Shown here in pieces: positions 7,004-24,842 of a DNA stretch of 64,000 nucleotides (its first letter is position 1; every line of letters begins with the position of its first letter). Source of the DNA: Candidatus Hydrogenedens sp. (GTDB lineage Bacteria; Hydrogenedentota; Hydrogenedentia; Hydrogenedentales; JAEUWI01); the NCBI GenBank assembly GCA_016125095.1, contig WGMK01000010.1, positions 438,149 through 502,148 of the forward strand. The letters are read 5' to 3'. The notes below the pieces were generated by a model. That model saw only the letters and a list, made by a program, of their open reading frames with translations, had not been told where the DNA came from and did no database searches. The translations under genes were made by a program, and so were the position numbers.

Positions 7004-7303
7004 ATGCCGAACTACACCTATCAGGTTATCCACGAGGACGGCAGCGAGGGGGAGTACTTCGAGTACACCCAGCGCATGAGCGAGCCGCCGCTGACCGAGC
7101 ACCCCGACACCGGCGAGAAGGTGGTGCGCGTGTTCAGCGTGCCGCACATCGCCGGCACGGCGAACGAGCGCATCCAGAAGCAGATCATGCACGACAAGAA
7201 TCTGGACCGCCTGGGTTTCACCAAATACGTGAAGAACGGCAAGGGCCAGTACGAGAAACACGTCGGCGACAGCAAGGCCCCGGACACGCTGTCGGCCGAT
7301 TGA
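7004..7303 (+). CDS. FmdB-family (zinc-ribbon regulatory protein) homolog lacking the Cys ligands
   Basis: MPNYTYQ...FEYTQRMSEPPLTEHPDTGEKVVRVFS aligns with the FmdB consensus MPIYEYRC..CGHRFEVLQKMSD.PLTACPECGGEVRRLIS. All four Cys positions are substituted (V/H/T etc.). Confidence 0.55.
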   Translation: MPNYTYQVIHEDGSEGEYFEYTQRMSEPPLTEHPDTGEKVVRVFSVPHIAGTANERIQKQIMHDKNLDRLGFTKYVKNGKGQYEKHVGDSKAPDTLSAD

Positions 7304-7330
7304 TGCGCGTTCTCGCGCCAAAAGGCCAAC

Positions 7331-7352
7331 GTGGCTCGCGGGTACGCTCGCC
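7331..7352 (+). repeat. dispersed copy of the motif gtggctcgcgggtacgctcgcc between convergent genes
   Basis: Identical 22-mer to the terminal motif of the 57-bp inverted elements at 38459-38515 (reverse) and 38776-38832. Confidence 0.45.
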
Positions 7353-7358
7353 CTCCCG

Positions 7359-8336
7359 TCAGACCTTCACGTAGATGTTGTTGCGCTTGAGGTAGAGCGC
7401 GACGACGTAGCAGACCGTGTAAAAGGCGGCGAAGGAAAGCAGGGCCCAGGCGGCGCTGGCGCTTTCGTCTACCAGGAACGCGCCGTGCAGGCCGATGAGC
7501 GCGTATTGCAGCACGTAGAGCACCAGCGGATTCGAGCCGAGGGTCGTCAGGTGGGGCAGCTGGATGCGGGCGCGGTCGCAAAGCAGGTGGAACGCGGCAT
7601 AGGCCAGGAACGCCATCCCCGTCGAGAGCAGCGCGTAGGGCGAGGTCATGTAGTACTGGCTCTGCGGCCAATGCGGCTTGATGCCGGGCCACGTCGCCTC
7701 GAGTCCCCAGCCCAGGGCGCACAGGCCCAGGCCCCATCCGAAGAGTCCCAGCGCCACGCGGCGCGCGTCGGGGCGTTCCGCGATATCCTGGCAGAGCGTG
7801 CCGAAGAGCAGGATACCGGCCCAGCTGAGAATGCCCAGCGGTCCGCCATTGAAGCTGTTGTGCATCACCCATTCGCCGTAGGGCGTGAGGCTGAAGACGG
7901 CTTGATACGCGCCGATACAGCCGAAGGCGGCCAGCGCCCGGGCGCGGGTGCCCAGCGCGATGAAGGGCAGCGCCACGAGGCCGCCCGCGCCGATATCCAC
8001 CAGCGCGTCCCACCAGTTCTCATAGTCGATCGGGTTGTAGAGCACGATGCCGATGAGCACGAGGATAGCGTAGCGTCGCGCGGCCGAGCCCAGCGCGCCG
8101 AGCAGGCCCATCGCTTCCACGCGCCGCCGCAGCGAAAGCCGGAAGCCCATGCCCACCACGAAGATGAACGCGGGCGCGATGGTGTCGGCGTAGCTGAAGC
8201 CTTCGCGGTGGTGCTTGAACTGCCACGGCATCACCTCGAACTGCCCCAGGAAATTCACAAGGATCATGCCGAAGATGGCATAGCCCCGGAACTGGTCGAT
8301 AGAGGCGATGCGGCGCGGGGGAGACGTCGCTTCCAC
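7359..8336 (-). CDS. DUF1624/DUF5009 membrane acyltransferase-like protein (heparan-alpha-glucosaminide N-acetyltransferase-like)
   Basis: 325 aa; the motif DQFRGYAIFGMILVNF with multiple TM helices is typical of this family. Confidence 0.65.
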   Translation of the reverse strand: MEATSPPRRIASIDQFRGYAIFGMILVNFLGQFEVMPWQFKHHREGFSYADTIAPAFIFVVGMGFRLSLRRRVEAMGLLGALGSAARRYAILVLIGIVLYNPIDYENWWDALVDIGAGGLVALPFIALGTRARALAAFGCIGAYQAVFSLTPYGEWVMHNSFNGGPLGILSWAGILLFGTLCQDIAERPDARRVALGLFGWGLGLCALGWGLEATWPGIKPHWPQSQYYMTSPYALLSTGMAFLAYAAFHLLCDRARIQLPHLTTLGSNPLVLYVLQYALIGLHGAFLVDESASAAWALLSFAAFYTVCYVVALYLKRNNIYVKV

Positions 8337-8343: not shown

Positions 8344-9765
8344 CTACTTCTTCTTGGGGCGGTAGATGTGGGTGGCCGTGCCGAAGATGGAACCGGCCGC
8401 CTCCATGAGCGCCTCGCTCAGCGTGGGGTGCGCATGGATGGTCAGGTCGATATCGCTGGCGGTGGCGCCCATTTCGATGGCGAGCGTGGCCTCGGCGATG
8501 AGTTCGCCCGCGCCGGCCCCCGTGATACCCACGCCCAGCACTTGGTGCGTGTCGGGATCGCTGATGATCTTGGTCACGCCCTCGGTACGGTTCAGCGTGG
8601 TGGCGCGTCCCGAGGCAGCCCAGGGGAACCGCGCCACGTCGACCTTGCGGCCAGCCTTTTTGGCCTCGCCCTCGGTAATACCGACCCACGCGATTTCCGG
8701 ATCGGTAAACACGACGCAGGGAATGGCTTGCGGCTCGAAGGCCGCGTTGTGTCCCGCGATGACTTCCGCCGCCACGCGGCCCTCGTGCGAGGCCTTGTGG
8801 GCGAGCGCCGGGCCTTCCACGATATCGCCGATGGCGAAGATGTTGGGGTCCGACGTGCGGCGCTGAATATCCACCTCGACAAAGCCGCGGTCGTTCACCT
8901 TCACCTTGGTGTTGTCTAGCCCGAGGCCGCTCGAGTTCGGCTTGCGGCCGATGCAGATGAGTACCTTGTCGAACACACGCTTGGGCTTCTTGATGCCCTC
9001 GCCCTCCAGCGTCACCTTGAGCCCGTTCTTCTGGTGCTCCATGTTCGTGACCTTGGTGTTCAGCAGGATCTCCTCGAAAATGCCCTCGACGCGCTTGGCC
9101 AGCGGACGCACAAGATCGCGGTCGCAGCCGGGCAGCAGGCCGTCGGTCGCTTCCACCATCGTGATCTTCGATCCCAGCGCGGCGTAGACCGTGCCGAGTT
9201 CGAGGCCGATATAGCCGCCGCCGACCACCAGCAGGTTCTCGGGCACGTCGTCCAGGCGGAGCGCGCCGGTGCTGTTCATGATGTAGGGCGACTGGATAAG
9301 CGGCGGCAGCAGTGTGGGCCGCGAGCCCGCCGCGAGGATGCTCTGCTGAAACTTGACGATCGTGGTGGCGCCGCCGACGGCGGTCACGCTGATGGTCTTC
9401 GAGTCGTCATAGGCGCCTCGGCCGCGTACGAAGCGGACGCCGCGCGCCTTGCAGAGCTGGCCCAGGCCGCCGGTCATCTGCTGCACCACTTCCTTCGTGG
9501 CGGCGCGCACGCGGTCTACGTCGATTTCCGGCTCGGCGAATTTCACGCCGAAGTGCGCGGCCTCGCGCGCGGCGGTAATCACATGCGCCACGTGCAGCAT
9601 CGCCTTCGAGGGGATGCAGCCCTTGTACAGGCAGGTGCCGCCGGGATTCTCCTCCGTGTCGATCAGCGTCACATCGAGGCCCAGATCGGCCGCCATGAAC
9701 GCGGCCGCATAGCCCCCGGGGCCGCCGCCCAATACCGCTACCTGTGTTTCAATCGTCTCGCTCAT
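8344..9765 (-). CDS. lpdA: dihydrolipoyl dehydrogenase (E3)
   Basis: 473 aa; FAD motif VLGGGPGGY, redox-active disulfide GGTCLYKGCIPSK and the C-terminal HAHPTLSE motif are present. Confidence 0.92.
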   Translation of the reverse strand: MSETIETQVAVLGGGPGGYAAAFMAADLGLDVTLIDTEENPGGTCLYKGCIPSKAMLHVAHVITAAREAAHFGVKFAEPEIDVDRVRAATKEVVQQMTGGLGQLCKARGVRFVRGRGAYDDSKTISVTAVGGATTIVKFQQSILAAGSRPTLLPPLIQSPYIMNSTGALRLDDVPENLLVVGGGYIGLELGTVYAALGSKITMVEATDGLLPGCDRDLVRPLAKRVEGIFEEILLNTKVTNMEHQKNGLKVTLEGEGIKKPKRVFDKVLICIGRKPNSSGLGLDNTKVKVNDRGFVEVDIQRRTSDPNIFAIGDIVEGPALAHKASHEGRVAAEVIAGHNAAFEPQAIPCVVFTDPEIAWVGITEGEAKKAGRKVDVARFPWAASGRATTLNRTEGVTKIISDPDTHQVLGVGITGAGAGELIAEATLAIEMGATASDIDLTIHAHPTLSEALMEAAGSIFGTATHIYRPKKK

Positions 9766-9820
9766 CGAAGGATCCCTACGGAGTTAATCACTAAAGGCTG
9801 GAGTGGAAAAAGGTGCGCAC

Positions 9821-11140
9821 TCAGGCGTCGAGCCAGAGCGTCCACGGCTGCTCGAGCGTCTGCGTGTACCACTTCATGAAGCGCGCGGCGTCGGCGCCGT
9901 CGATGAGGCGGTGGTCGTACGAGAGCGTCATCGGCATCATGAGGCGCGGGGCGAAGCCGCCGTTCTCAAACACTGGTTCCACGGCCGCGCGCGACACGCC
10001 GAGGATGGCCACCTCGGGCGCATTGATGATGGGCGTGAAGCCCTGGAAACCCGGGCCGCCCACGCCGCCGAGGTTGGTAATCGTCATACACGCGCCCTGC
10101 ATCTCGTCCAGCGAAAGTTTGCGGTCGCGCGCCTTGGCGGCCAGCTGCGGCACTTCGATGGCGATATCGAGCAGGCTCTTCTGGTCGGCGTCCTTGATGA
10201 CGGGCACTAACAAGCCGGCGGGGGTATCTACCGCGACGCCGATGTTCACGTAGTCCTTCATCAGGACTTCCTGCTTCTCGACATCGAAGCTGGCGTTGAA
10301 CTTGTGGAAGCGGCGGAGCGCCTCGGCCATCACCTTAATCAGGAAGACGGTTACCGTCAGCTTGCCGCCGCCGGATTCGAACTGCTTGCCGTATTGCTTG
10401 CGGATGTCCTCGAGCTTGGTAATGTCGGCCTTCTCGAAGTGGGTGACGTGGGGGATGGTCGACCAGCAATAGGCCATGTGCTCCACGGTCTTCTTGCGGA
10501 CGGCGTTCATCGTCTCGCGGCGCACAGGGCCCCACTTGCCCGATTCGACCGGGCCGGATGGCGCGGGGGCCGGGGCGGCCTTGGCGGCCGGGGCGGCCGG
10601 AGCAGCCGCCGCCGGGGCAGGCGCGCCGCCCTTGGCGAAGGCCATCACATCCTGCGCGGTCACGCGGCCCGAGGGATCTGCCGTGGGCACTTCGTTCAAT
10701 TCCACGCCAAGTTCGCGCGCGAGTTTGCGCACCGAGGGTGAGGCCAGCACGGGCGTACCGGCAGCGCGCGGCGCGGCGGCCGGTCGCTCCAGCACTTGCA
10801 GGCTGGGCTTCGGGGCCGGTGCGGGCGCTTGCTTGGGCTGTTCGGGCTCCGATTCGGGGGCGGCCTCCTTGGCTGGGGCGGGTTCCGACTTCGCCGGGGC
10901 CGCGCCGCCTTCATACGAAAACAGCGGCTGGCCCACCTTCACCACGTCGCCTTCCTTCACGGAGATCTCGGTGATCTTCGCATCGGCGGGGGCGGTGATC
11001 TCGGTCACGGCCTTGTCGGTCTCGATTTCCAGCACCGCCTGGTTCTTGCTGACGGAATCGCCCGCCTTCACCAGTAGACGCCCAATGGTTCCGGAGGCGA
11101 TGTTCTCGCCCAGCTCGGGAAGTTTGAATACGGTGGCCAT
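9821..11140 (-). CDS. aceF: dihydrolipoamide acetyltransferase (E2) of pyruvate dehydrogenase complex
   Basis: 439 aa; an N-terminal lipoyl domain (IETDKA), an Ala/Pro-rich linker, an E3-binding domain and the catalytic domain (DHRLIDG). Confidence 0.9.
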   Translation of the reverse strand: MATVFKLPELGENIASGTIGRLLVKAGDSVSKNQAVLEIETDKAVTEITAPADAKITEISVKEGDVVKVGQPLFSYEGGAAPAKSEPAPAKEAAPESEPEQPKQAPAPAPKPSLQVLERPAAAPRAAGTPVLASPSVRKLARELGVELNEVPTADPSGRVTAQDVMAFAKGGAPAPAAAAPAAPAAKAAPAPAPSGPVESGKWGPVRRETMNAVRKKTVEHMAYCWSTIPHVTHFEKADITKLEDIRKQYGKQFESGGGKLTVTVFLIKVMAEALRRFHKFNASFDVEKQEVLMKDYVNIGVAVDTPAGLLVPVIKDADQKSLLDIAIEVPQLAAKARDRKLSLDEMQGACMTITNLGGVGGPGFQGFTPIINAPEVAILGVSRAAVEPVFENGGFAPRLMMPMTLSYDHRLIDGADAARFMKWYTQTLEQPWTLWLDA

Positions 11141-11182
11141 GCTGCCTTCCTCTGGTCGGGTCCTTGCGGTCCGCGGAACGGA

Positions 11183-13813
11183 CTAGCTGTACATCGGGTT
11201 GGGTTTGTTCACGGAAATCTTGAGGTGCTTGATGGCGCCCTTCACCACGTCCGCCGTGATGCTGCCGTCCTGCAGCAGGGCGTTGAGCGTGGCGAGCACG
11301 ATGAAGCGGGCGTCGACCTCGAAGTGGTTGCGCAGCGCCTCGCGCGATTCGCTCCGGCCGAAGCCGTCGGTGCCCAGGCTGTGGATGCCGCCGGGCACCC
11401 ACTTCGAGAGGCCATCGGGCAGAATCTTCATGTAGTCCGACGAGGCGACCACGGGGCCGGGCTCGGATTCGAGCATGCGGGTGACGAAGGGCACCTTCGG
11501 CTTCGAGCCGGGATGCAGCAGGTTCCAGCGCTCGGCGTCCAGCGCGTCGCGCCGGAGTTCGGTGTAGCTGGTCACGCTCCAGGCATCGGCCGCGACGCCG
11601 TATTCCTCGAGCATCTCCTGCGCCTTGAGCACCTCGTTCATGATGGCGCCGCTGCCCAGCAGTTGCGCGTGCAGCTTGGCGTTCTTCAGCTTCGACGGGC
11701 GGAACTTGTACAGGCCCTTGAGAATGCCCTCGCGCACGCGCTTGGAATCCTGCAGCGCAGGCATGGCGTAGTTCTCGTTCTCTACCGTCAGGTAGTAAAA
11801 AATGTCTTCCTGCTCGTGGTACATGCGGCGGATGCCGTCCTGCACCACGATGGCGAGTTCGTAGGCGAAGGCGACGTCGTAGCAGACGAGGTTGGGCACG
11901 CAGCTGCCGAACACGTGGCTGTGGCCGTCCTGGTGCTGAAGGCCTTCGCCGTTGAGCGTGGTGCGTCCGGCCGTGCCGCCGCAGAGGAAGCCCTTGCACC
12001 GGCTGTCGCCCGCGGCCCACACCAGATCGCCCACGCGTTGCATGCCGAACATGGAGTAGAACACGAAGAAGGGGATGGTATTTACGCCGTGGCTGGCGTA
12101 GGCCGTACCCGCGGCGATGAAGGACGACATTGAGCCGGCCTCGTTGATGCCTTCCTCGAGCAGCTGTCCGTCCTTCGCCTCGCGGTAATACATGAGGCTG
12201 TTCGAGTCGACCGGTTCATAGGTCTGGCCGAGGGACGAATAGATGCCGACCTGCTTGAACAGGCCGTCCATGCCAAAGGTGCGGGCCTCGTCGGGCACGA
12301 TGGGCACGATCAGCTTGCCGAATTCCTTGTCCTGCAGCAGCGTGCGGATGACCTGCACGAGCGCCATGGTCGTCGATACGGGGCGCTCGCTGCCGGCGTA
12401 GATGGACTTGAAGAGATCGTCCTTCGGGGCCTTCACCGGAGCGGCGTGCACCTTGCGGTCGGGCAGATAGCCGCCGAGCGCCTGGCGCCGCTCGTGCAGA
12501 TACTTCATGTTCGGCGCGTCGTCGTCGGGCTTGTAGAAGGGCGCGAACGCAATCTCGTCGTCGGATACGGGAATGCCGAAGCGGCCGCGGAATTCGCGCA
12601 GCTCTTCTTCGTTCAGCTTTTTCTGCTGATGGGTGATGTTCTTGCCTTCGCCGCTCTCGCCCAGGCCGTAGCCCTTCACCGTCTTTGCGAGGATCACCGT
12701 GGGCGCGCCCTTGGTATTAACCGCGCGGTCGTAAGCAGCATAGACCTTTTTCGGGTCGTGGCCGCCGCGCTTGATCTTCTTGATCTCGGTGTCGCTCAAC
12801 TGGTCGAGGAATTTCTTGATACGCGGGTCCACGGCAATCAGGCGCTTGCGGATGTACTCCGGCGTCTCCACCGTGAACTTCTGGAACTCGCCGTCGGGCA
12901 GGGACGCGAACACGCTCTCGAGCACGTTCTCGGAATCCTGTGCGAAGAGCTTGTCCCAGTCGCTGCCCCAGATGACTTTGATGACGTTCCAGCCCGCGCC
13001 GCGGAAGATGCCCTCGAGTTCCTGGATGATCTTGCTGTTACCGCGCACGGGACCATCCAGGCGCTGCAGGTTGCAGTTGATGACGAAGATAAGGTTGTCC
13101 AGCTTTTCGCGTGCGGCCATGCCGATGGCGCCGAGCGTCTCGGGCTCGTCGCATTCGCCGTCGCCCAGGTACGCCCACACGCGCCCGCCATTCGCCGGCT
13201 TCAGTCCACGATTCTCCAGGTACCGCATGAAGCGCGCCTGATAGATGGACATGATGGGACCAAGGCCCATGGATACCGTCGGGAATTGCCAGAAGTTCGG
13301 CATGAGCCACGGGTGCGGATACGAACTTAAGCCGCCGCCCTTGGCCAGTTCGCGGCGGAAGTTGTTCAGTTCCTGAATCGAGATGCGCCCTTCGAGGAAG
13401 GCGCGCGCGTAGATACCCGGCGCGGCGTGCCCCTGGAAATACACCAGGTCGCCGCCGTAGTCCTTGGTCTTGGCATGGAAGAAGTGATTGAAGCCCACCT
13501 CGTACAACGTTGCCGCCGAGGCGTAGGTGGAGATATGGCCGCCGATACCGTCCGATTCGCGGTTCGCCCGCACCACCATCGCCATCGCATTCCACCGGAT
13601 GAGGGACTTGTTCACGCGGCCCAGCTGCCCGTCGGTCGGGTATTCGGGCTCTTCCTCCACCGGGATCGTGTTCACATACGGCGTGTTCTGGCTGAAGTTG
13701 CCCCGGACTCCCCGCATGTAGGCATAGGTCTGCAATTCCTTCAGCAGCCGCTCCGCCGCGCCGCGGCCTTGCGCCTGCAATACGCCCTCGAGCGAATCGA
13801 GCCATTCGCTCAT
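11183..13813 (-). CDS. aceE: pyruvate dehydrogenase E1 component, homodimeric type
   Basis: ~876 aa, AceE-like throughout. Start chosen at MSEWLDSLEG, which resembles the E. coli AceE N-terminus; the ORF track allows 13900. Confidence 0.88.
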   Translation of the reverse strand: MSEWLDSLEGVLQAQGRGAAERLLKELQTYAYMRGVRGNFSQNTPYVNTIPVEEEPEYPTDGQLGRVNKSLIRWNAMAMVVRANRESDGIGGHISTYASAATLYEVGFNHFFHAKTKDYGGDLVYFQGHAAPGIYARAFLEGRISIQELNNFRRELAKGGGLSSYPHPWLMPNFWQFPTVSMGLGPIMSIYQARFMRYLENRGLKPANGGRVWAYLGDGECDEPETLGAIGMAAREKLDNLIFVINCNLQRLDGPVRGNSKIIQELEGIFRGAGWNVIKVIWGSDWDKLFAQDSENVLESVFASLPDGEFQKFTVETPEYIRKRLIAVDPRIKKFLDQLSDTEIKKIKRGGHDPKKVYAAYDRAVNTKGAPTVILAKTVKGYGLGESGEGKNITHQQKKLNEEELREFRGRFGIPVSDDEIAFAPFYKPDDDAPNMKYLHERRQALGGYLPDRKVHAAPVKAPKDDLFKSIYAGSERPVSTTMALVQVIRTLLQDKEFGKLIVPIVPDEARTFGMDGLFKQVGIYSSLGQTYEPVDSNSLMYYREAKDGQLLEEGINEAGSMSSFIAAGTAYASHGVNTIPFFVFYSMFGMQRVGDLVWAAGDSRCKGFLCGGTAGRTTLNGEGLQHQDGHSHVFGSCVPNLVCYDVAFAYELAIVVQDGIRRMYHEQEDIFYYLTVENENYAMPALQDSKRVREGILKGLYKFRPSKLKNAKLHAQLLGSGAIMNEVLKAQEMLEEYGVAADAWSVTSYTELRRDALDAERWNLLHPGSKPKVPFVTRMLESEPGPVVASSDYMKILPDGLSKWVPGGIHSLGTDGFGRSESREALRNHFEVDARFIVLATLNALLQDGSITADVVKGAIKHLKISVNKPNPMYS

Positions 13814-14230
13814 GCCATCGTCATAGGATTCTTCAGACTGGTAGTCCACACTCACGGAATCGTTCCTCGTACTGTTGCAGCGCGGGCGCCCCGGCCGCAT
13901 CAGGGGTCTTCACAGGCGCACCCTGCCAGTCTACCGAAACGAGAGCGGGGGTACACCTACTTATCGTTAGGTACGCCGCCCTCCGGGCTTCGCACCGTCC
14001 TTGCGGGGGAACACTTTACGTGGGGAAAGCATTTCTGCTGGGGGAACGAAGACTGCTGGCGACTCCCAGGCTTGAACAGGCGTACATCGACTGGGGCAAA
14101 CCCGACGTCGGCTCCGTCCTGCGGGCGTTGACTGGGGCTTGGCAAAGAGCCTAGTCTGGAATTTCGTAGTATAGTGGCACCTTGGGACAACCATGGGTGT
14201 GGTCAAGAAATCGTCTTGGGAGGACGTACC

Positions 14231-16822: not shown

Positions 16823-16858
16823 CGGCGGCGGCTCCCAACGGGCCGCCGCCGTTTTTTT
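16823..16858 (+). terminator. rho-independent terminator
   Basis: cggcggcggc-tcccaac-gggccgccgccg followed by ttttttt. Confidence 0.65.
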
Positions 16859-16990: not shown

Positions 16991-18100
16991 ATGGCCCGCG
17001 CAAAGAAGAAAGACCGCATCTTTACCGACCGGGAGCGCAAGCTGTTCCGGAAGCGTATCCCCTCGACCGAATCGATTTTCGGCGCGGGGTTCCTCGCGTT
17101 TGTTATCGGCATGGGCAGTTGGTTCTTCGCGCAGAAGAACAACTTCGACCCTTCCGAGCGCGACATATCGAATGAATTGATGGTCGCGGATTCCGTGGAA
17201 GACAAACTCTTCCGCATGCCCTTGGAGCGTTGGACCGAGCCGGGCCAGGGCGGGGTGGTTTCTGCGGCCGCCGATACCGGCTATTTCCCCGAGGCGATTC
17301 TCGAGCACGGCTGGCAGCCCTCCACCCGTCCGCAAGAATTCGTCGCCGACAACCTCTACGAGAAAATCAACGGCGCGGCGCCCCAGTACATCGACTTCGG
17401 CTTTCAGAAGCTCTACTACATCGGGCTGGTGCAGCCCGCCACGAATGCCGAAATCAGCATTGAGATGTACGACATGGGCGAGTTTCAGAATGCGCTCGGC
17501 ATCTTTGCGGCCCAGCGCGACGCCAGCCGCGACGTCATCAACCGCGGACACGCCTATTTCTACGAGACCTCGCTCGGCGCGATCGGCATCGCCGGAACCT
17601 ATTATTTCAAGATTGCCGGTGCCGAGCCCGGGCCCGAGATTGAGAAGAAGACGCAGTACCTGATTGACGCACTTTGCGGGCTAAAGCAGGCTCAGATTGG
17701 AACGCCGACCGCGTTCCAGGCTTTCGCCGGTACGATGGGCATTCCATTCCAGAACATCCAATACCAGCGCACGGATGTATTCCAGTACGATTTCGCCAAG
17801 GATTTCTGGTTTGCCGCGCCTGCCGACGGCGACGGCATGCGGTACTACGTACACGAGACGCCCGACGAATCTGCGGCGGGTGACCTATATAACAAGCTTC
17901 TCGAGAATCACTTAATGGACTACGAACAGACGGCGGAGCGGGAAGGCGGGGTGGTACTGAAGCATAAGTACCTCGACGAGTACTTGGTGCTGGAGAAGCG
18001 CGGTTCGATGATTTATGGACTCGATGGCGCCCCGTCGATCGATTCGGTCGATGGCAGCCTGTCGAAACTGGAAACGGTGATCTTCCATGAAGAAAGCTAA
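16991..18100 (+). CDS. membrane-anchored hypothetical protein (N-terminal TM, large extracytoplasmic domain)
   Basis: 369 aa; a basic N-terminus then the TM helix FGAGFLAFVIGMGSWFF. It overlaps the downstream DUF362 gene by 14 nt. Confidence 0.5.
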   Translation: MARAKKKDRIFTDRERKLFRKRIPSTESIFGAGFLAFVIGMGSWFFAQKNNFDPSERDISNELMVADSVEDKLFRMPLERWTEPGQGGVVSAAADTGYFPEAILEHGWQPSTRPQEFVADNLYEKINGAAPQYIDFGFQKLYYIGLVQPATNAEISIEMYDMGEFQNALGIFAAQRDASRDVINRGHAYFYETSLGAIGIAGTYYFKIAGAEPGPEIEKKTQYLIDALCGLKQAQIGTPTAFQAFAGTMGIPFQNIQYQRTDVFQYDFAKDFWFAAPADGDGMRYYVHETPDESAAGDLYNKLLENHLMDYEQTAEREGGVVLKHKYLDEYLVLEKRGSMIYGLDGAPSIDSVDGSLSKLETVIFHEES

Positions 18101-19142
18101 AGACGGCATCCAGCATCCCGATTACGAAAAGGCGCCGATGAGCCGACGCGCGCTGCTGGGCAAGATTGCCGCGACGGGCGGCATCGCCGGTGCTGCGGGC
18201 TACGCGGCCTGGGCGCCCGAGGGCGCGCCTGGTTCGCTCCGGGACACCTCCGGCCTGCGCAGCGTGCCCAAGGTGACGCCGCTTCGACTGCCCGACTTCC
18301 GCGTAGAGAAGCCGGCGGGTGCGGCCGACGTCGGCATCGGACGCCACAGTGATCCGCTGCAGAACGACGCATCGATGTTGCGCGCGGCGCTGGACGCCAT
18401 CGGTGGCCTGCAGCACTATGTGAAGCGAGGCGACATCGTGATGGTGAAGCCCAACGTGGCCTTCGACCGTGCCCCGGCGCTGGGCGCCACTTCAAATCCG
18501 CGGTTGCTGAAAGAACTCATCCACATGCTGATTGTCGATTGCGGCGCGCAGGAAGTGCGCGTGGCCGACAATCCCATCGAGTCGCCGCCCGACTGCTTCG
18601 CCAAAAGCCGCATCGGCGAGGCGAGCCAGACGGCGGGCGGCCGCGTGTATCTGCCGGATTCCAACGCCTTCAAGATGCTGCACACGCCGGGGGCCAAGCT
18701 CATCGAGAACTGGTGGTTTTTCCACCGCCCCTTCACCAATGTGGACAAGGTGATCGGGCTGGCGCCCATCAAGGATCACAACCTGTGCAGCGCCTCGATG
18801 GGCATGAAGAACTGGTACGGGCTGCTGGGCGGCACGCGCAACCAGTTCCATCAAGACATCCACGGCATCGTGTCCGATCTCTCAGTGATGATGCGGCCGA
18901 CGCTGACGATTCTCGATGGCACCCATGTGCTCATGCAAAACGGTCCCACCGGCGGCGACCCTTCGAACGTGAAGATGGGCGATGCGGTGATTGCGGCGGT
19001 CGATCCGGTCGCTTGCGACGCCTGGGCCTTCGAGTATCTGCTCGAGCGCGGCCGCGATTACCCGAGCTATCTCTACATGGCCGAAGAGAAGGGCAGCGGG
19101 AAAGTGGATTGGGCGGGTCGCGTGAAGGAAATTCAGGCCTAG
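18087..19142 (+). CDS. Tat-exported DUF362 domain protein
   Basis: Twin-arginine motif [25 protein letters not shown]. The DUF362-like core ([45 protein letters not shown]) is present. Confidence 0.72.
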
Positions 19143-19188: not shown

Positions 19189-20838
19189 ATGATTCAGAAG
19201 CTACAGCGAACCATCGCGGAATTGTCGTGGAAGAAGGTTCTCCGCCTCACGAACGTCCGCATTGTGTCCCAAGCGTTTTTCTTCGCGGTGTTCCTCTTCA
19301 GCGTATGGGCCACCTGGACCACCCGCCTCGGCGGCTATCCGGTGTCGCGCATCCTCGAGATGGACCCGCTCGTGATGGTCGCGAACATTCTTTCGACCGG
19401 GCACGTCTACCGCTATCTCGGCTGGGGGCTGGTGATAATCGTCGTCACGCTGCTGTTCGGCCGCGTCTTCTGTAACTGGATATGCCCCTACGGCACGCTG
19501 CACCAGTTCATCGGCTGGTTGTTCAATGTGCGCAACGGCAAGGAACGCATCGACAGCAACCGTTACGCCGACTTCTATTTCGTGAAGTACGCGATCCTTA
19601 CCGTGTTTCTGATCATGGCATTCATGGGCTCGCTTCAAATCGGCCTGCTCGACCCCATCTGCCTGATGTACCGCACCTTTGCCACGGTGGTCGCGCCCAT
19701 GTCCGACATGGGGATTGACCAGCTGTCGAACGGGCTGCGGCTGTTGAATGCCGATACACATTTCCTCGACAACCTCAAGTTCGGTCCGGGCGTGGAAGAG
19801 CGCTTCTTCGTTGGCTCGTTCTGGATTGGCGTGATGATCGTGTTCCTCGTGGGCATGAATATCGTCATTCCGCGGTTCTTCTGCCGGGTGCTCTGTCCGC
19901 TCGGCGCCTTCCTCGGCACGCTGTCGCGCTTCGCGGTCTTCCGTATTAACCGCGACGTGCACAAGTGCACGGACTGCAACCTGTGCCTCACGCGTTGCGA
20001 AGGCGCGGCGGACCCGCAGGGCGCGGTGCGGCAGTCCGAATGCTTCTCGTGCATGAACTGCATCGACGACTGCCCGGAAGACGCGCTGTCTTTCACGATG
20101 ACCGGGCTCGATACCAAGCAGGTGGTGGCCTCGCCGGATCTCGGCCGCCGCCGCTTCTTCTTCGCCTCGCTCGCCGGCGTGATGGCGGTGCCCTTCGTAA
20201 AGACCCACGGTGTGAACGTCGACCACCATTTCTCGCCCGAGCTTATCCGTCCGCCGGGTTCGGTGGAAGAAGCCGAGTTCCTGAAAAAATGCATCAAGTG
20301 CGACCAGTGCATCAATTCCTGCCCCACCAATGTGCTTCAGCCGGCATCCACCCACCAAGGCGGTATAGAGGCTTTGTGGACCCCCGTGATGGATTTCCGC
20401 ATGGGACACTGCCAGCTCAAGTGCACCATGTGTTCCGAAGTCTGCCCGACCGGCGCGATCCGCAAAATCACGGTGGAGGAGAAGATGGGCAAGGGCGACT
20501 ATCTCGAAGAGGGGCCCGTGCGTTTGGGTACCGCGTTCTTCGACAAGGGCCGTTGTCTGCCGCACGCCATGGAGATTCCCTGCGTAGTGTGCGAGGAAGT
20601 GTGCCCGGTTTCGCCCAAGGCTATCCAGACCAAGGATGTCGAGGCGAAGGACGTTTATGGCAATATCGTCGTGCTGAACAAGCCCTTCATGGTGCCCGAT
20701 TTGTGCATTGGCTGCGGCATCTGCGAGCATGAGTGCCCGGTGAAGGATGATCGCGCCGTCTATGTGACGGCCGTGGGTGAGAGCCGTTCGAAGGAGCGCA
20801 GACTGCTCTTGCGGCAGCGCGAACTGAAAGACGCCTGA
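19189..20838 (+). CDS. NapH/MauN-like membrane polyferredoxin with multiple 4Fe-4S motifs
   Basis: 549 aa; TM-embedded FCNWICPYG and FCRVLCPLG motifs are characteristic of NapH. At least four CxxCxxCxxxCP ferredoxin motifs follow, and an internal Tat-like motif [11 protein letters not shown] is present. Confidence 0.8.
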
Positions 20839-20868: not shown

Positions 20869-22089
20869 ATGAAGCACAAGGATCTGGCGAGACGCGACTT
20901 CATGAAGGGGGCCGTGCTGGGAGGCGCGGGGCTGGGCATGGCGGGCGGCGCTTCGGCACTGCATGCGCCGATGCAACTGGCCGAGGGGGACGCTGCGGCC
21001 GCCACGACGGTGCCGCGCAAAAAGCTGGGCAGCACCGGCGAGGAGATTCCGATTCTGCTGATGGGCGGATCGCAGACTTTTGACCCCAAGTACGACAAGA
21101 TGCTGCACCGCGCCTACCGCATGGGCGTCAACTACATCGACACGGCGCAGGTATACGCGGGCGGTCAGTCGCACAAGACCATCGCGCCGTTCCTGCAGCA
21201 GGTAGGCCGCAAGAACCTTTGGATTACGTCCAAGGTGAAACTGGCCGGCAGCAAGGCGACCCCCGACAATTTCAAGAGCTATCTGCAGACGGCCTGCTTG
21301 GACCAGTTGGAAACGGACTATCTCGACATGTACTTCATGCACATGATCGACGATCTGGCCCTGCTTGAGCCCGAATTCATCAAGATGGGCGACGACCTCA
21401 AGAAAGAGGGCAAGATCAAGTACTTCGGCTTTTCCTGCCACGATGGCCTGGTGGCCGAGCTGATCGACAAGGCCGCGGACGTGGGCGGTATCGACGCCAT
21501 CATGTTCCGCTACAACTTCCGCCAGTACGGCGAGAAGAAGCTGAACGACGCGATGGACAAGGCCAAGAAGGCAGGCATCGGCCTGATTGCCATGAAGACC
21601 CAGGCCTCGGTGCCGGACGACCTGGAGAAGGTGGCGGAGTTCCAATCGAAGAACTTCACGTTGCCGCAGGCGAAGCTGAAATCCGTGTGGGCCGACGAGC
21701 GTATCGACGCCGCCGTATCGCAGATCAACAACCTGCAGATTCTGGAAGAGAATGCCGGCGCCGCCATGTCGCCCGCTCAGCTCAGCATGAACGAGTATCA
21801 CCAGCTGAATAAGCTGGCCCGCATGACACGTTCGCACCACTGCCTCGGTTGCAACCAGATCTGCGAGTCGCGCGTGGCGGGACAGCTCAAGATTTCCGAC
21901 GCGCTGCGCTACCTCATGTACCACGAGAGCTACGGCGACGCCGAGACGGCCCGCCTGTTGTACAACGCGCTTTCGGATGGCGAGCGCGACTTCGATTCGG
22001 TGGACCTGACCGAGGCAATCAAGGCCTGTCCGCAGGACATCCAGATCGGCGAGCGTCTGGCGAAGGCCCGTCAGGTACTCAGCGCCTAA
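20869..22089 (+). CDS. Tat-exported aldo/keto reductase family oxidoreductase with C-terminal Cys cluster
   Basis: Twin-arginine signal ARRDFMKGAVLGGAGLGMAGGASALHA. The AKR core (GVNYIDTAQVYAGGQSHK) is present, and the C-terminus carries C-x2-C-x3-C...C-P (HHCLGCNQIC...KACP). Confidence 0.78.
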   Translation: MKHKDLARRDFMKGAVLGGAGLGMAGGASALHAPMQLAEGDAAAATTVPRKKLGSTGEEIPILLMGGSQTFDPKYDKMLHRAYRMGVNYIDTAQVYAGGQSHKTIAPFLQQVGRKNLWITSKVKLAGSKATPDNFKSYLQTACLDQLETDYLDMYFMHMIDDLALLEPEFIKMGDDLKKEGKIKYFGFSCHDGLVAELIDKAADVGGIDAIMFRYNFRQYGEKKLNDAMDKAKKAGIGLIAMKTQASVPDDLEKVAEFQSKNFTLPQAKLKSVWADERIDAAVSQINNLQILEENAGAAMSPAQLSMNEYHQLNKLARMTRSHHCLGCNQICESRVAGQLKISDALRYLMYHESYGDAETARLLYNALSDGERDFDSVDLTEAIKACPQDIQIGERLAKARQVLSA

Positions 22090-22109
22090 TCACTGCAATC
22101 GTTACCGAG

Positions 22110-22147
22110 GCGGCGGGATTCTTCGGAATTCCGCCGCTTCTGCTTTT
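22110..22147 (+). terminator. putative bidirectional terminator between convergent genes
   Basis: 12-bp stem gcggcgggattc / gaattccgccgc around a ttcg loop, followed by ttctgctttt. Confidence 0.45.
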
Positions 22148-24842
22148 ACCGGGGCGCCGCCATGAGCAGGGCCGCGAGGGCGCGCAGCAAGACGCCCCGG
22201 TCCACCGGCTTCGACAGCAGTTCCGTTCCCGGCTGGGCAAGGAGTTCGTCGGTTACCTGATCGGCGGAGTACCCCGTAAGGAACATGACCGGAATACCCG
22301 GGCGCACTTCCCGTATGCGGGCGAGGGCCTCGGTGCCATTGAGGCGTGGCATCACGACATCGAACAACAGAAAATCGAAGCTGTCGGGTGCAGCCTCGAA
22401 CAGCTCTACCGCCTCGAGTCCGTCCGTGGCGACCGTAACGTCGTAACCGGCTACCGCGAGAATCTGCGTCATGGCCTCGCGTACCAGTTTCTCGTCCTCC
22501 GCGAAGAGTAAGCGGGCAGCGCCGGAGATGGCGACCGCCTCGGCCGGGTGCCGCTCTGCGACCGGGTCCGTTGCGGCCGCGATGGGCAGGCGCACAAGGA
22601 AAGTCGAGCCTTTTCCTGGTTCGCTTTCCACCTGGATGCTGCCGCCATACTGCGTCACGATTCCGTAGACCGTCGAGAGCCCCAGCCCCGTGCCTTCATT
22701 GAGTGGCTTCGTAGTGAAGAAGGGCTCGAAGATATGCGGCAGTACGTCGGGTGGGATGCCTGCCCCGGTGTCGCGGATGCAAATGGCGACATGCGTCGGC
22801 CGGGCGCCCTCGGACAGCGCAATCGTCGGGTCTGCGGGCCCCTCCTGCTCTTGGAGCGAGACATCCAGCACGCCGCCCTGCGGCATGGCATCGCGGGCAT
22901 TGAGCGCCAGGTTCAGCAATACCTGCTGCAGCTGGGTTTCGTCGCAGCGTACGCGCGGCAGGTGTGGCATGGCCTGTAGACGCAGGTCGATACGTTCGCC
23001 CAGCAAGGGGCCGATAAGCTCGGCAGTCCCCTCGGCCACCTCAAGGGCATCGACCGAATGAACGGCGGCCGGCTCATTCCGGCTGAAGGCGAGCAGCTGA
23101 TTGACGATACCTGCTGCGCGCTGGGCGGCCGTGTTGATTCTCAGGAAATAGCCAGCGGGAGTCGCCGGCACATCGCCGCGGCTCATGCCCATCTCAGAAT
23201 ATCCGAGAATTCCCTGCAGCACATTGTTGAAGTCGTGCGCGATGCCGCCCGCGAGCTGCCCGATGGCCTCCAGCTTCTGGGCCTGCAGCAGGTGCTGCTC
23301 ATTGCGGCGCACCGCAGCCTCGGCTTCCTTGCGCGCGGTGATATCGAAGATGACACCCTCAATGAGACGATCGTCTCCCGACTCCAGCACGATGCCCTTG
23401 TCGGCCACCCAGCGAAAGCCGCCGTCGCGGTGGTTGGCGCGGTATTCGAGCGCATAAGCGCGGCGGTTGGCCGCGGCCGTCTCGACCGCAGCGCGCACCA
23501 TGGCCAGGTCTTCCGGGTATACCATCTCCTGCCAGAAATCTATCGCCGGCTCCAGGATTTCATCGGCCGATTTACCCGTGATGCGTTCGAACCAGGGACT
23601 GAGGTAGGTGGCCTGTACCGATTCGCCCAGCGTGCCGCGATAGACCGCGCCGGGTATATTGCGCACGAGTGCGCGGTAGCGCTCCTGGGCCTCTTCGCGC
23701 GCGGCCTCGGCCTTGTGCCGCTCGGTGATATCTCTGAAACTGCCCCAGACGCGGATGATCTGGCGCCCGGCGATGATGCCTTGCGCGCTGTTCTCGAACA
23801 CGCGCGGGCTGCCATCGGTTCCCTCGCCCGAGGTGGGGGCATCCTGCAGCTGGTATCCGCCGACCACGAATTGCCGGCAGATTTCATGGAGCGTGCGGTG
23901 GGTGGGCCGGCCCGTGATGTCGGCAAACCGCACGCCCAGCGCGTCCTCGCGGCGCTTGAATCCGTATTGACGCGCGCATACGTCGTTGCATTCCACCAGC
24001 ACGCCGTTCATCAAGCCCTGAATCTGCTCTTCCTGCGGCAGCTTGGTTGATATGGGCGGGTCGAACTCGTAGCACCAGATGGCATCCGAGGTGCTTTCGA
24101 TCAGGGACTTGTAGCGTTGTTCCCGATCGCGCAGCGCCGCCTCGATGGTCTGGCGCTCGGCAAATTCCTGCTCGCGGCGCATCAGCAATTCGGCATTGCC
24201 CTCGGCCACCTGAATCAGGCGGCGCGTCACTTGACGGCGGCTTTCGAGACCGGCCAGTGCCAGGAAAGCCAGCGCGAATACATAGGTGAGCCAGGCGAGC
24301 GGATCGAGCGACAAGTTCTGCTCGATATACAAAATGGGAATGAGGTCGGTGGCGAGGTAGAGATAGGCGTAGATGGCGTAGGTAACGAGCATGGCACAGA
24401 GCACGGCGAACCCGACGGGATAGCCGACCAGGCCGCCCGCGAAAAACACCGAGCAGAGGAACAGCGGCGGATTCATGCTGCCGAGGCCGTAGAAGTGCAA
24501 CTCGACCACGCCGATGCCGAACATGACCGCGAGGAGGGTGATGGCGCGCACCTGGTAGGGAATCCGCGGATAGAGGTTGGCCGCCAAGACGGAGAAGTAG
24601 CCGATCAGGTATAACGCGGCGCGCAGGTATTCCTCATTGCCGAACCGCCGCGAGACGGTAACATAGACCGCGAAGCCGCCCACGACCGCGAAGATGAGCA
24701 GCATGGCGCGCAGGCTGCGCTCCTGCAACTCCGCCAGCAACTTGCGGGCATCCTGCGGATAATCCGTCGCGCTCATCTTGATGTACTCGCGGAATTGCCC
24801 ACGGTTATGCTCTCCTCCGTCTCCCCGGCTAAACCTTAGCAC
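22146..24842 (-). CDS. hybrid sensor histidine kinase (multi-TM N-terminus, PAS domains, HisKA, HATPase, C-terminal receiver)
   Basis: 898 aa; H-box HDFNNVL, N/G boxes (NLALNARDAM, RDTGAGI, GTGLGLS) and a receiver domain (LLFAEDE...DVVMP). Confidence 0.85.
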   Translation of the reverse strand: MLRFSRGDGGEHNRGQFREYIKMSATDYPQDARKLLAELQERSLRAMLLIFAVVGGFAVYVTVSRRFGNEEYLRAALYLIGYFSVLAANLYPRIPYQVRAITLLAVMFGIGVVELHFYGLGSMNPPLFLCSVFFAGGLVGYPVGFAVLCAMLVTYAIYAYLYLATDLIPILYIEQNLSLDPLAWLTYVFALAFLALAGLESRRQVTRRLIQVAEGNAELLMRREQEFAERQTIEAALRDREQRYKSLIESTSDAIWCYEFDPPISTKLPQEEQIQGLMNGVLVECNDVCARQYGFKRREDALGVRFADITGRPTHRTLHEICRQFVVGGYQLQDAPTSGEGTDGSPRVFENSAQGIIAGRQIIRVWGSFRDITERHKAEAAREEAQERYRALVRNIPGAVYRGTLGESVQATYLSPWFERITGKSADEILEPAIDFWQEMVYPEDLAMVRAAVETAAANRRAYALEYRANHRDGGFRWVADKGIVLESGDDRLIEGVIFDITARKEAEAAVRRNEQHLLQAQKLEAIGQLAGGIAHDFNNVLQGILGYSEMGMSRGDVPATPAGYFLRINTAAQRAAGIVNQLLAFSRNEPAAVHSVDALEVAEGTAELIGPLLGERIDLRLQAMPHLPRVRCDETQLQQVLLNLALNARDAMPQGGVLDVSLQEQEGPADPTIALSEGARPTHVAICIRDTGAGIPPDVLPHIFEPFFTTKPLNEGTGLGLSTVYGIVTQYGGSIQVESEPGKGSTFLVRLPIAAATDPVAERHPAEAVAISGAARLLFAEDEKLVREAMTQILAVAGYDVTVATDGLEAVELFEAAPDSFDFLLFDVVMPRLNGTEALARIREVRPGIPVMFLTGYSADQVTDELLAQPGTELLSKPVDRGVLLRALAALLMAAPR

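What the first reader, a model, noticed from the sequence alone, without database searches (positions are those of the whole stretch)
20869..22089. Tat-exported aldo/keto reductase with a C-terminal four-Cys cluster
AKRs are normally cytoplasmic NAD(P)H enzymes. This one carries a canonical Tat signal, which implies that a folded, possibly cofactor-loaded protein is exported. Its C-terminus has C-x2-C-x3-C (HHCLGCNQIC) plus a distant C-P (KACP), which could ligate an Fe-S cluster or metal. That would fit an electron supply from the adjacent polyferredoxin instead of from NADPH.
Basis: inference. Interest (0 to 1): 0.55.

Follow-up and report, generated by a model that had tools for sequence, protein, structure and literature searches.

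The report
Periplasmic iron-sulfur aldo-keto reductase cassette
This gene encodes an aldo/keto-reductase-fold enzyme that is almost certainly exported folded to the periplasm, carries what looks like one iron-sulfur cluster in place of the usual NADPH site, and sits in a conserved four-gene cassette next to a membrane polyferredoxin, which makes it a widespread but unstudied kind of respiratory-type enzyme.

Summary
ORF 20869-22089 (+) encodes 406 aa with a twin-arginine signal (RRDFMK, ASA cleavage site), an AKR barrel with an intact D91/Y96/K122/H158 tetrad, and a helical C-terminal domain with C325-x2-C328-x3-C332 and C387-P.

The four Cys are essentially invariant in relatives down to 26% identity, and about 90% carry an RR motif. 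In a sister clade the same domain is a standard 8-Cys Fer4 dicluster domain. The window protein keeps exactly C1-C3 plus C8-P, the ligand set of one [4Fe-4S] cluster in the classical dicluster ferredoxin scheme, so an Fe-S site is the best reading.

Most residues that hold the nicotinamide and the phosphates in Tm1743-NADP+ are replaced family-wide. New invariant residues (His191, Lys243) appear instead.

The gene is last in a terminator-bracketed cassette: DUF6599, then DUF362 (Tat), then a NapH-NapG fused polyferredoxin, then the AKR. This cassette is complete in 42 of 50 informative genome loci across at least seven phyla. The 8-Cys clade lacks the polyferredoxin and DUF362 but keeps DUF6599.

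Best reading: a periplasmic Fe-S AKR wired to the quinone pool. Substrate, direction of electron flow and the hydride or electron cofactor are unknown. I found no literature on it. Novelty: new variant of a known kind.

The parts
16823..16851 (+). Terminator-like hairpin that ends the preceding gene and marks the upstream boundary of the cassette
   Evidence: 12-bp stem with 11 GC pairs followed by T7
16991..18100 (+). DUF6599 protein (369 aa). It has an N-terminal TM helix (aa 29-47) and two periplasmic alpha/beta-sandwich domains. It is probably a membrane-anchored scaffold or accessory subunit.
18087..19142 (+). DUF362 protein (351 aa) with its own Tat signal (MSRRALLGK..., RR at nt 18144-18149). 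Its start overlaps the DUF6599 stop by 14 nt.
   Evidence: Pfam PF04015, E 1.8e-37. RR motif in 51 of 54 orthologues and about 110 invariant residues, including K121, C170, K229-D-H231, C234 and H255. Same Pfam clan as the LarA N-terminal domain (PMC11770544).
19189..20838 (+). Fused NapH-like/NapG-like polyferredoxin (549 aa). It has 4 TM helices with two CxxxCP motifs and two CxxCxxCxxxC motifs on the cytoplasmic side. An internal RRRFFF Tat-type segment follows (aa 320-340, nt 20146-20208). After it comes a periplasmic domain with four cluster motifs.
   Evidence: NCBIfam NapH 92 bits and NapG 89 bits, both below the equivalog cut-offs. Motifs and TM segments. 28 Cys invariant in 61 orthologues and R321 invariant. 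Same architecture as the MLMS-1 polyferredoxin, which was shown experimentally to be Sec+Tat dual-targeted (PMC5449189).
20855..20862 (+). Shine-Dalgarno sequence GAGGAGGG of the AKR gene
   Evidence: Read directly from the sequence
20869..22089 (+). The AKR-ferredoxin gene itself (406 aa plus stop)
   Evidence: ORF list. Identical to GC168_07555.
20869..20958 (+). Twin-arginine signal peptide (aa 1-30; RR at nt 20890-20895; A-S-A at aa 28-30)
   Evidence: Sequence. RR conserved in 89 of 99 and 115 of 118 relatives. This segment has low pLDDT in the model, as expected for a signal peptide.
21010..21768 (+). AKR (alpha/beta)8 barrel (aa about 48-300) with tetrad D91 (21139-21141), Y96 (21154-21156), K122 (21232-21234) and H158 (21340-21342). 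Family-specific residues are S189-C190-H191 (21433-21441) and K243 (21595-21597).
21769..22086 (+). Helical C-terminal domain (aa 301-406), homologous to a Fer4 dicluster domain that has lost one cluster
   Evidence: 30% identity over the full length to P0233, whose equivalent region scores above threshold for Fer4_9, Fer4 and Fer4_8. No solved structure covers this domain.
21841..21864 (+). C325-x2-C328-x3-C332, which corresponds to C1-C3 of ferredoxin motif 1 with a one-residue insertion
   Evidence: Alignments. Invariant.
22027..22032 (+). C387-P388, which corresponds to C8-P of ferredoxin motif 2 and is the predicted fourth ligand of the retained cluster
   Evidence: Alignments. C387 is kept in 99 of 99 and 118 of 118 relatives.
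22107..22140 (+). Terminator-like hairpin 18 nt after the AKR stop, marking the downstream boundary of the cassette
   Evidence: 15-bp stem

Best explanation
The gene encodes the catalytic, substrate-specific subunit of a periplasmic, membrane-associated oxidoreductase. I propose the following steps.

1. The protein folds in the cytoplasm and acquires one [4Fe-4S] cluster on C325, C328, C332 and C387. The Tat system then exports it.
2. In the periplasm it docks on the four-cluster NapG-like domain of the neighbouring NapH-NapG fusion protein. The membrane-anchored DUF6599 protein probably assists docking, and the Tat-exported DUF362 protein is also present.
3. Electrons pass one at a time between the quinone pool (NapH-like half) and the AKR active site through the chain of Fe-S clusters.
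4. The conserved Asp-Tyr-Lys-His tetrad polarises and protonates or deprotonates a carbonyl, quinone or alcohol group of a periplasmic substrate.
5. The classical dissociable NAD(P)H is probably not used.

Shown by computation: the ORF, the Tat motif, the AKR fold and tetrad, homology of the Cys domain to a ferredoxin domain, the conserved synteny, and replacement of NADP-contact residues.

Inferred only: cluster binding, export, the docking partner, absence of nicotinamide, the direction of electron flow and the substrate.
For: - Tat motif and four Cys are conserved in 120 close and 99 distant relatives.
- Sister proteins (P0233 and others) carry a true 2x(CxxCxxCxxxCP) Fer4 domain at the same place.
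- Of 337 full-length family members, 175 have exactly C1-C3 plus C8, 143 have all eight Cys, and only 19 have another pattern.
- Architecture co-varies with context. One-cluster proteins sit behind the polyferredoxin and DUF362: 42 of 50 informative loci, plus L001-L005 and the distant P0133 locus. Two-cluster proteins have only DUF6599 next to them, in 5 of 5 loci. This fits loss of the outer relay cluster once a dedicated Fe-S wire is supplied in trans.
- The polyferredoxin has 28 invariant Cys, enough for seven clusters, and an internal twin-arginine motif. This protein class is Tat-translocated in experiments, and NapGH is a quinol dehydrogenase (PMC5449189).
- All three periplasmic parts have their own Tat motifs.
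- The tetrad is invariant. Of the Tm1743-NADP+ contacts, N148 becomes C/T, Y198 becomes M, S199 becomes K (invariant), K244 becomes Q/G and H250 becomes I, and the GTW loop is shortened. Only D, S and E-N are kept.
- The cassette is bracketed by terminators, with unrelated flanking genes in every locus.
- AKR genes are present as 1-3 tandem copies, plus stand-alone paralogues in genomes that also hold a cassette, as expected for interchangeable catalytic subunits.
Against: - There is no experimental datum for any family member, and no literature was found.
- The spacing CxxCxxxC differs by one residue from the ferredoxin norm, and the C-terminal domain alone hits no Pfam Fer4 model.
- I could not read model coordinates. 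The geometry of the four Cys and the distance from cluster to active site are therefore unchecked.
- A carbonyl cannot easily be reduced by single electrons without a hydride carrier such as a flavin or nicotinamide, and none is identified. The intact tetrad is what a normal NAD(P)H-dependent AKR would also have.
- E294-N295, the adenine contacts in Tm1743, are retained in the window's clade.
- Seven of 50 informative loci have the AKR without the cassette.
- The 8-Cys clade works without any polyferredoxin, so the polyferredoxin is not an obligatory partner of the fold.
- The Cys-pattern counts come from two clades and are not independent events.
Confidence: 0.55

Rival explanations
1. A holo-NAD(P) periplasmic AKR. 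The barrel keeps a tightly bound, non-dissociating NAD(P)(H), which is why Tat export is needed, as for glucose-fructose oxidoreductase of Zymomonas. The enzyme then acts either as a redox-neutral isomerase/epimerase or dismutase, or its bound cofactor is recycled through the Fe-S cluster and the polyferredoxin.
For: - The intact D-Y-K-H tetrad and S189, D91 and E294-N295 are retained.
- The AKR fold extends over the whole barrel.
- A few family members have Asn at position 190 (P0134, P0183, P0185, P0193).
- The periplasm has no free NAD(P)H, so only a bound cofactor would work there (general knowledge).
Against: - The residues that stack on and hydrogen-bond the nicotinamide and bind the phosphates in Tm1743 are replaced family-wide.
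- The Pfam model fails to match the last third of the barrel, which holds the cofactor loops.
- Hydride-to-single-electron conversion between NAD(P)H and an Fe-S cluster normally needs a flavin, and no flavin-binding part is seen.
- This reading does not explain the conserved link to a seven-cluster quinone-coupled protein any better than the best explanation does.
Confidence: 0.2
2. The four Cys bind a structural metal (Zn) or form disulfides, or the cluster is only structural or regulatory. In this reading the AKR is not an electron-transfer partner of the polyferredoxin. DUF362 would be the true catalytic partner of the polyferredoxin, and the AKR would be a co-regulated accessory enzyme or a non-catalytic scaffold like Kv-beta or SmbA.
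For: - The C-terminal domain hits no Fer4 model on its own, and the Cys spacing is atypical.
- DUF362 is the more conserved protein of the two, at 57-79% against 48-79% identity.
- One tandem paralogue (L004 6963-7886) lacks the Cys domain and has lost K and H of the tetrad.
Against: - There is full-length homology to proteins with a standard Fer4 dicluster domain, and the cluster-II ligand set is lost as a block.
- The C-P signature is kept in 74 of 99 representatives.
- The tetrad is invariant, which argues for catalysis.
- The 8-Cys clade has AKR-ferredoxin without DUF362.
- Disulfides cannot form before Tat export of a folded protein.
Confidence: 0.12
3. The barrel binds a different redox cofactor in the remodelled pocket, for example FMN. 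The invariant K243 and H191 and the end of strand 7 could hold a phosphate. Electrons would then go [4Fe-4S] to flavin to substrate, as in trimethylamine dehydrogenase or 2,4-dienoyl-CoA reductase. Formally this is a sub-case of the best explanation that names the missing hydride carrier.
For: - New invariant basic residues sit at the positions that contact the nicotinamide and pyrophosphate in Tm1743.
- The architecture, a TIM barrel followed by a Cys-rich Fe-S segment, resembles those flavoenzymes (own knowledge, not tested).
Confidence: 0.13

Closest known systems
Classical NAD(P)H-dependent aldo/keto reductases, e.g. Thermotoga maritima Tm1743 (PDB 5dan/6kik)
   Different: - It has a Tat signal.
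- It has an extra 105-aa helical Cys domain.
- The nicotinamide-stacking Tyr, the carboxamide Asn and the 2'-phosphate Lys are replaced.
- It is genetically tied to a membrane polyferredoxin.
Tat-signal AKR + 2x[4Fe-4S] Fer4 fusion proteins (sister clade found here, e.g. P0233; domain architecture Aldo_ket_red + Fer4_9/Fer4_17; uncharacterised)
   Same: It is homologous over the full length (30% identity, E 1e-48). It shares the Tat motif, the tetrad, His191, Lys243 and the DUF6599 neighbour.
   Different: The window protein keeps only 4 of the 8 Cys (one cluster). It is embedded in a cassette with DUF362 and a NapH-NapG polyferredoxin, which the 8-Cys proteins lack.
NapGH / NosGH-type quinol dehydrogenase modules that feed periplasmic reductases, and the fused MLMS-1 polyferredoxin (Tooke et al. 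2017, PMC5449189)
   Same: The neighbouring protein has the NapH part (4 TM helices, CxxxCP x2, cytoplasmic clusters). It also has the NapG part (Tat motif, four clusters) in one chain, and 28 invariant Cys.
   Different: There is no NapA, NosZ or cytochrome c partner in the cassette. The presumed client is an AKR-fold protein plus DUF362. Scores are far below the NapG/NapH equivalog cut-offs.
Glucose-fructose oxidoreductase of Zymomonas mobilis (Tat-exported enzyme with tightly bound NADP; own knowledge)
   Same: It is a normally cytoplasmic type of nicotinamide enzyme fold sent to the periplasm by Tat because it is exported with a cofactor.
   Different: The fold differs (Rossmann, Gfo/Idh/MocA family). 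That enzyme has no Fe-S cluster and no membrane electron-transfer partner.
TIM-barrel Fe-S flavoenzymes (trimethylamine dehydrogenase, 2,4-dienoyl-CoA reductase; own knowledge)
   Same: A barrel active site is followed by a Cys motif that binds one [4Fe-4S] cluster, which relays single electrons to or from the active site.
   Different: The barrel family is unrelated (OYE-like) and the cofactor is FMN. Those enzymes are cytoplasmic. The resemblance is architectural only.

Membership tests
Aldo/keto reductase superfamily (PF00248) | (alpha/beta)8 barrel of the AKR type | tested here: met
Aldo/keto reductase superfamily (PF00248) | Catalytic tetrad Asp-Tyr-Lys-His | tested here: met
   D91, Y96, K122 and H158 align with D53, Y58, K84 and H117 of Tm1743. 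They are invariant in 120 close homologues and 88-98% conserved in distant ones.
Aldo/keto reductase superfamily (PF00248) | Sequence score above Pfam gathering threshold | tested here: met
   85.9 bits against a cut-off of 24, but only profile positions 19-194 of 291 match.
Aldo/keto reductase superfamily (PF00248) | Canonical NAD(P)H-binding residues: carboxamide Ser/Asn(/Gln), stacking Tyr, phosphate Ser/Lys/Arg, adenine Glu-Asn | tested here: not met
   Mapped on the Tm1743-NADP+ contacts (PMC5479831) through the HMMER alignments. Kept: D91, S189, E294, N295. Replaced: N148 to C190 (T/S/C in the family), Y198 to M242, S199 to K243, K244 to Q285, H250 to I291. The GTW loop is shortened. Actual binding is not testable here.
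AKR-ferredoxin fusion (Aldo_ket_red + Fer4 dicluster domain) | C-terminal domain homologous to a Fer4 dicluster domain | tested here: met
   Full-length BLASTP to P0233, E 1e-48. P0233 passes the Fer4_9, Fer4 and Fer4_8 thresholds in the aligned region.
AKR-ferredoxin fusion (Aldo_ket_red + Fer4 dicluster domain) | Two CxxCxxCxxxCP motifs (eight Cys, two clusters) | tested here: not met
   Only C1-C3 (spacing CxxCxxxC) and C8-P are present. There is no Pfam Fer4 hit for the window protein.
Single [4Fe-4S] site of ferredoxin type | Three Cys of one motif plus the Cys-Pro of the partner motif | tested here: met
   C325, C328, C332 and C387-P388 are conserved in 98-99 of 99 and 118 of 118 relatives. 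175 of 337 members have exactly this set.
Single [4Fe-4S] site of ferredoxin type | Cluster actually bound; the four thiolates within ligating distance | not testable with these tools
   Model coordinates are not readable.
Tat substrates | N-terminal S/T-R-R-x-F-L-K-like motif, moderately hydrophobic h-region and AxA site | tested here: met
   A-R-R-D-F-M-K, a Gly/Ala-rich h-region and A-S-A at aa 28-30. Conserved in relatives. Some relatives carry a Pfam TAT_signal PF10518 hit.
Tat substrates | Export depends on TatABC | not testable with these tools
   This needs reporter fusions in tat+ and tat- hosts.
NapGH-type quinol dehydrogenase (the neighbouring gene) | NapH part: 4 TM helices, two CxxxCP motifs and two cytoplasmic ferredoxin motifs. 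NapG part: twin-arginine motif and four cluster motifs. | tested here: met
NapGH-type quinol dehydrogenase (the neighbouring gene) | Equivalog-level score and association with NapAB | tested here: not met
   92 and 89 bits against cut-offs of 234 and 269. There is no nap gene in the cassette or its flanks.

The most novel reading that the evidence does not exclude
AKR-ferredoxins are a nicotinamide-independent branch of the AKR superfamily. In this reading the Tyr/His/Lys/Asp tetrad supplies protons while a [4Fe-4S] cluster supplies single electrons, as at the quinone site of complex I. A periplasmic carbonyl- or quinone-type substrate, such as an extracellular or humic quinone or another redox-active carbonyl, is then reduced or oxidised. 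In the window's clade this chemistry is coupled to the quinone pool through a Sec/Tat-inserted seven-cluster NapH-NapG protein. Together this would form a new respiratory module that is widespread in uncultured Hydrogenedentota, Planctomycetota, Acidobacteriota, SAR324 and Gammaproteobacteria.
Probability: 0.3. Interest if true: 0.8.

Novelty: new variant of a known kind. Interest (0 to 1): 0.6.

Why it matters
All characterised AKRs are soluble NAD(P)H enzymes. A large, phylogenetically broad clade that is exported by Tat and carries Fe-S clusters would extend what this textbook fold can do, particularly since one sub-clade is hard-wired to a quinone-coupled polyferredoxin.

It would also define a new periplasmic electron input or output route in several abundant but uncultured phyla. 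Relatives of the window's clade occur in 386 species-level genomes.

It also gives first functional context to three domains of unknown function or client: DUF6599, periplasmic DUF362, and the NapH-NapG fused polyferredoxins whose biogenesis, but not function, has been studied.

Tried and rejected
- Pfam scan of the C-terminal domain alone at E up to 10 gave no Fer4 hit, only a sub-threshold TPR match. Homology to ferredoxin had to be shown through intermediate sequences instead.
- Six literature searches found nothing relevant on Tat, periplasmic or Fe-S AKRs, COG1453 or DUF6599. The two candidate papers checked concerned ordinary cytoplasmic AKRs.
- The AlphaFold-database fold library was not available.
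- Model coordinates are not exposed to scripts. I could not measure Cys-Cys distances or the distance from cluster to active site.
- DUF362 gave no hit against PDB sequences, either as a single sequence or as a 10-sequence profile.
- The neighbourhoods of the seven stand-alone AKR copies gave no recurring gene and no substrate hint. The genes flanking the cassette in the window are unrelated: pyruvate dehydrogenase complex, an LRR protein, a hybrid histidine kinase and an acyl-CoA dehydrogenase.
- Rejected: a mis-called start codon. The RBS, the conserved N-terminus and the conserved RR motif argue against it.
- Rejected: chance Cys. They are invariant down to 26% identity.
- Rejected: membership of NapG/NapH proper for the neighbour. 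Scores are far below the cut-offs and there is no nap context.
Full report
**1. The observation**

The ORF 20869..22089 (+) exists as described. It is 406 aa with an ATG start and is preceded by GAGGAGGG six bases upstream. It is identical to hypothetical protein GC168_07555 of a Candidatus Hydrogenedens MAG.

- The N-terminus MKHKDLARRDFMKGAVLGGAGLGMAGGASA-LHAP has the twin-arginine consensus (R-R-x-F-M-K), a Gly/Ala-rich h-region and an A-S-A site.
- The C-terminus contains C325-L-G-C328-N-Q-I-C332 and C387-P388.
- Pfam recognises an Aldo_ket_red domain (85.9 bits), but only over aa 73-247, which are profile positions 19-194 of 291.

**2. It is not chance**

- The 120 closest database relatives (54-100% identity) all carry C-x2-C-x3-C. 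Every one with a complete N-terminus has the RR motif.
- In their alignment C325, C328, C332, C387, D91, Y96, K122 and H158 are invariant or nearly so.
- An exhaustive HMMER search of 1.8 billion cluster representatives found 137 clusters at E<1e-30.
- In 99 full-length representatives down to 26% identity, the four Cys are present in 98-99, an RR motif in 89, the tetrad in 87-97, and a family-specific His191 in 97.

**3. What the Cys domain is**

Some distant family members (P0233, P0205, P0225, P0246, P0259, P0261, P0266) have two full CxxCxxCxxxCP motifs at this place. P0233 passes the Pfam thresholds for Fer4_9, Fer4 and Fer4_8 there, and it aligns with the window protein over its full length (30% identity, E 1e-48).

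In that alignment the window's C325, C328 and C332 are C1-C3 of motif 1, with a one-residue insertion before C3. C387-P is C8-P of motif 2.

In a classical 2[4Fe-4S] ferredoxin, C1-C3 plus C8 ligate one cluster and C5-C7 plus C4 ligate the other (established knowledge). The window protein has therefore kept one complete ligand set and lost the other as a block.

Over 337 full-length family members:
- 175 have exactly C1-C3 plus C8.
- 143 have all eight Cys.
- Only 19 show anything else, including P0133 and P0134, which still have C4.

These counts come from two clades and are not independent events. The all-or-none pattern is still what Fe-S ligands predict and what Zn or disulfide Cys do not. 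I therefore rate a single [4Fe-4S] cluster at about 0.8.

**4. The barrel**

| Tm1743 contact | Role | Window / family residue |
|---|---|---|
| D53 | nicotinamide ribose | D91, retained |
| S147 | carboxamide | S189, retained |
| E253-N254 | adenine | E294-N295, retained |
| N148 | carboxamide | C190 (T/S/C/V in the family) |
| Y198 | stacking | M242 |
| S199 | pyrophosphate | K243 (invariant in 337 sequences) |
| K244 | 2'-phosphate | Q285 (G/H/Q/E) |
| H250 | adenine stacking | I291 |
| G-T-W loop | nicotinamide ribose | five residues shorter |

His191 is a new invariant residue. This argues that the canonical NAD(P)H binding mode is gone, but it cannot show that no nucleotide binds.

**5. 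Genomic context**

The gene is the last of four co-directional genes. They lie between a strong terminator at 16823-16851 and another at 22107-22140.

- **DUF6599** (16991-18100).
- **DUF362** (18087-19142), with its own Tat motif. Its start overlaps the DUF6599 stop by 14 nt.
- **A 549-aa polyferredoxin** (19189-20838).
- **The AKR**.

The polyferredoxin is a NapH-NapG fusion. It has four TM helices, two CxxxCP motifs, two cytoplasmic ferredoxin motifs and an internal RRRFFF segment with a weak hydrophobic stretch, followed by four further cluster motifs. All 28 Cys and R321 are invariant in 61 orthologues.

This architecture matches the MLMS-1 polyferredoxin. Tooke et al. showed that protein to be inserted jointly by Sec and Tat, with the NapG-like half outside the cytoplasm. 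They describe it as a fusion of the two subunits of the NapGH quinol dehydrogenase (PMC5449189). They did not discuss a client enzyme.

**6. Conservation of the cassette**

The same four genes in the same order occur in every long contig I fetched for distant homologues, with unrelated flanks.

A scan of 185,579 species genomes found relatives in 386. The best 80 are all MAGs, from Hydrogenedentota, Planctomycetota, Acidobacteriota, Nitrospirales-labelled bins, SAR324, Gemmatimonadota, Rhodothermaeota and Gammaproteobacteria.

Of the 50 loci with at least 4.3 kb upstream:
- 42 have the full cassette. Within these, 37 have one AKR, 4 have two and 1 has three.
- One is partial.
- Seven have a lone AKR.

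Some lone copies come from genomes that also hold a cassette. For example, L029, L055 and L071 are all from one MAG.

**7. The sister clade**

A search with P0233 retrieved more than 100 AKR + Fer4-dicluster proteins. Of these, 115 of 118 have an RR motif, and all have Y96, H191 and K243.

In five of five long contigs these 8-Cys proteins sit next to a DUF6599 gene and have no polyferredoxin or DUF362. A distant 4-Cys member (P0133) again has the polyferredoxin upstream.

DUF6599 is therefore the universal partner. The polyferredoxin plus DUF362 pair goes with the one-cluster form. The simplest reading is that the second, outer cluster became dispensable once a dedicated Fe-S wire was supplied in trans.

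**8. DUF6599 and DUF362**

DUF362 is extremely conserved (about 110 invariant positions, RR in 51 of 54). It belongs to the same Pfam clan as the N-terminal domain of the nickel-pincer enzyme LarA (PMC11770544). It has no detectable PDB relative by sequence, so its role remains open.

**9. Mechanism and its limits**

The best-supported model is a periplasmic Fe-S AKR that exchanges electrons with the quinone pool through the NapH-NapG protein.

- **Direction is open.** Known NapGH modules deliver quinol electrons to periplasmic reductases. However, reducing ordinary aldehydes or ketones with quinol would be uphill, whereas oxidising alcohols or aldoses to quinone, or reducing high-potential quinone-type carbonyls, would be downhill (thermodynamic reasoning, own knowledge).
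- **The hydride problem is unsolved.** Either a tightly bound nicotinamide or flavin is present, or the substrate is one that accepts single electrons, such as a quinone, with Tyr/His as proton donors.

**10. Novelty**

Domain databases already show Aldo_ket_red + Fer4 architectures. The NapH-NapG polyferredoxin has been studied for its biogenesis. I found nothing on the following in the library searched:
- the Tat-exported AKR-ferredoxin family;
- its one-cluster derivative;
- its remodelled cofactor pocket;
- the four-gene cassette.

I classify it as a new variant of known kinds: an AKR fold combined with a NapGH-type electron module. Interest is 0.6.

Noticed in passing
window 19189-20838 (+): The polyferredoxin is a single-chain NapH-NapG fusion with an internal twin-arginine motif (RRRFFF, aa 320-325). 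Its 28 Cys are invariant in 61 orthologues, enough for seven clusters. It belongs to the class shown experimentally to need both Sec and Tat for insertion. No physiological client has been assigned to that class.
   Followed up: yes
window 18087-19142 (+): This is a periplasmic (Tat-signal) DUF362 protein with about 110 invariant residues, including K121, C170, K229-D-H231, C234 and H255. DUF362 shares a Pfam clan with the nickel-pincer enzyme LarA. No solved relative is detectable by sequence, even with a profile.
   Followed up: partly
window 16991-18100 (+); also L086-L088, L090, L091: DUF6599 is a single-TM protein with two PsbP/Mog1/DcrB-like domains. It is the one constant neighbour of AKR-ferredoxin genes in both the 4-Cys and the 8-Cys clades.
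   Followed up: yes
window 18087-18100: The DUF362 start codon lies 14 nt inside the end of the DUF6599 gene, which suggests translational coupling.
   Followed up: no
L004/L005 5641-9215: There are three tandem Tat-signal AKR paralogues behind one cassette. The middle one (307 aa, 6963-7886) lacks the Cys domain and has Gln for the tetrad Lys and Leu for the tetrad His, so it is probably a degenerate copy.
   Followed up: partly
L026, L029, L037, L040, L044, L053, L071: These are stand-alone AKR-ferredoxin paralogues without the cassette. Some are in genomes that also hold a cassette. In L026 and L040 the gene follows a prepilin-type (N-terminal methylation motif) protein.
   Followed up: partly
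P0133, P0134 (L089 for P0133): These are intermediate forms with five Cys (C1-C4 plus C8). They may be snapshots of the stepwise loss of the second cluster. P0133 already has the polyferredoxin upstream.
   Followed up: no
window 22146-24842 (-): A convergent 898-aa hybrid histidine kinase (MASE11-PAS-PAS-HisKA-HATPase-receiver) lies directly downstream of the cassette. It is not conserved next to the cassette in other genomes.
   Followed up: partly
window 8344-13900 (-): Pyruvate dehydrogenase complex genes (E1, E2, E3) lie upstream. They are unrelated to the cassette.
   Followed up: no
L035 6976-7797: Only the C-terminal half of the polyferredoxin is detectable upstream of the AKR in this complete Acidobacteriota chromosome, and there is no DUF362 or DUF6599 hit. 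This may be a masked stretch or a rearranged cassette.
   Followed up: no
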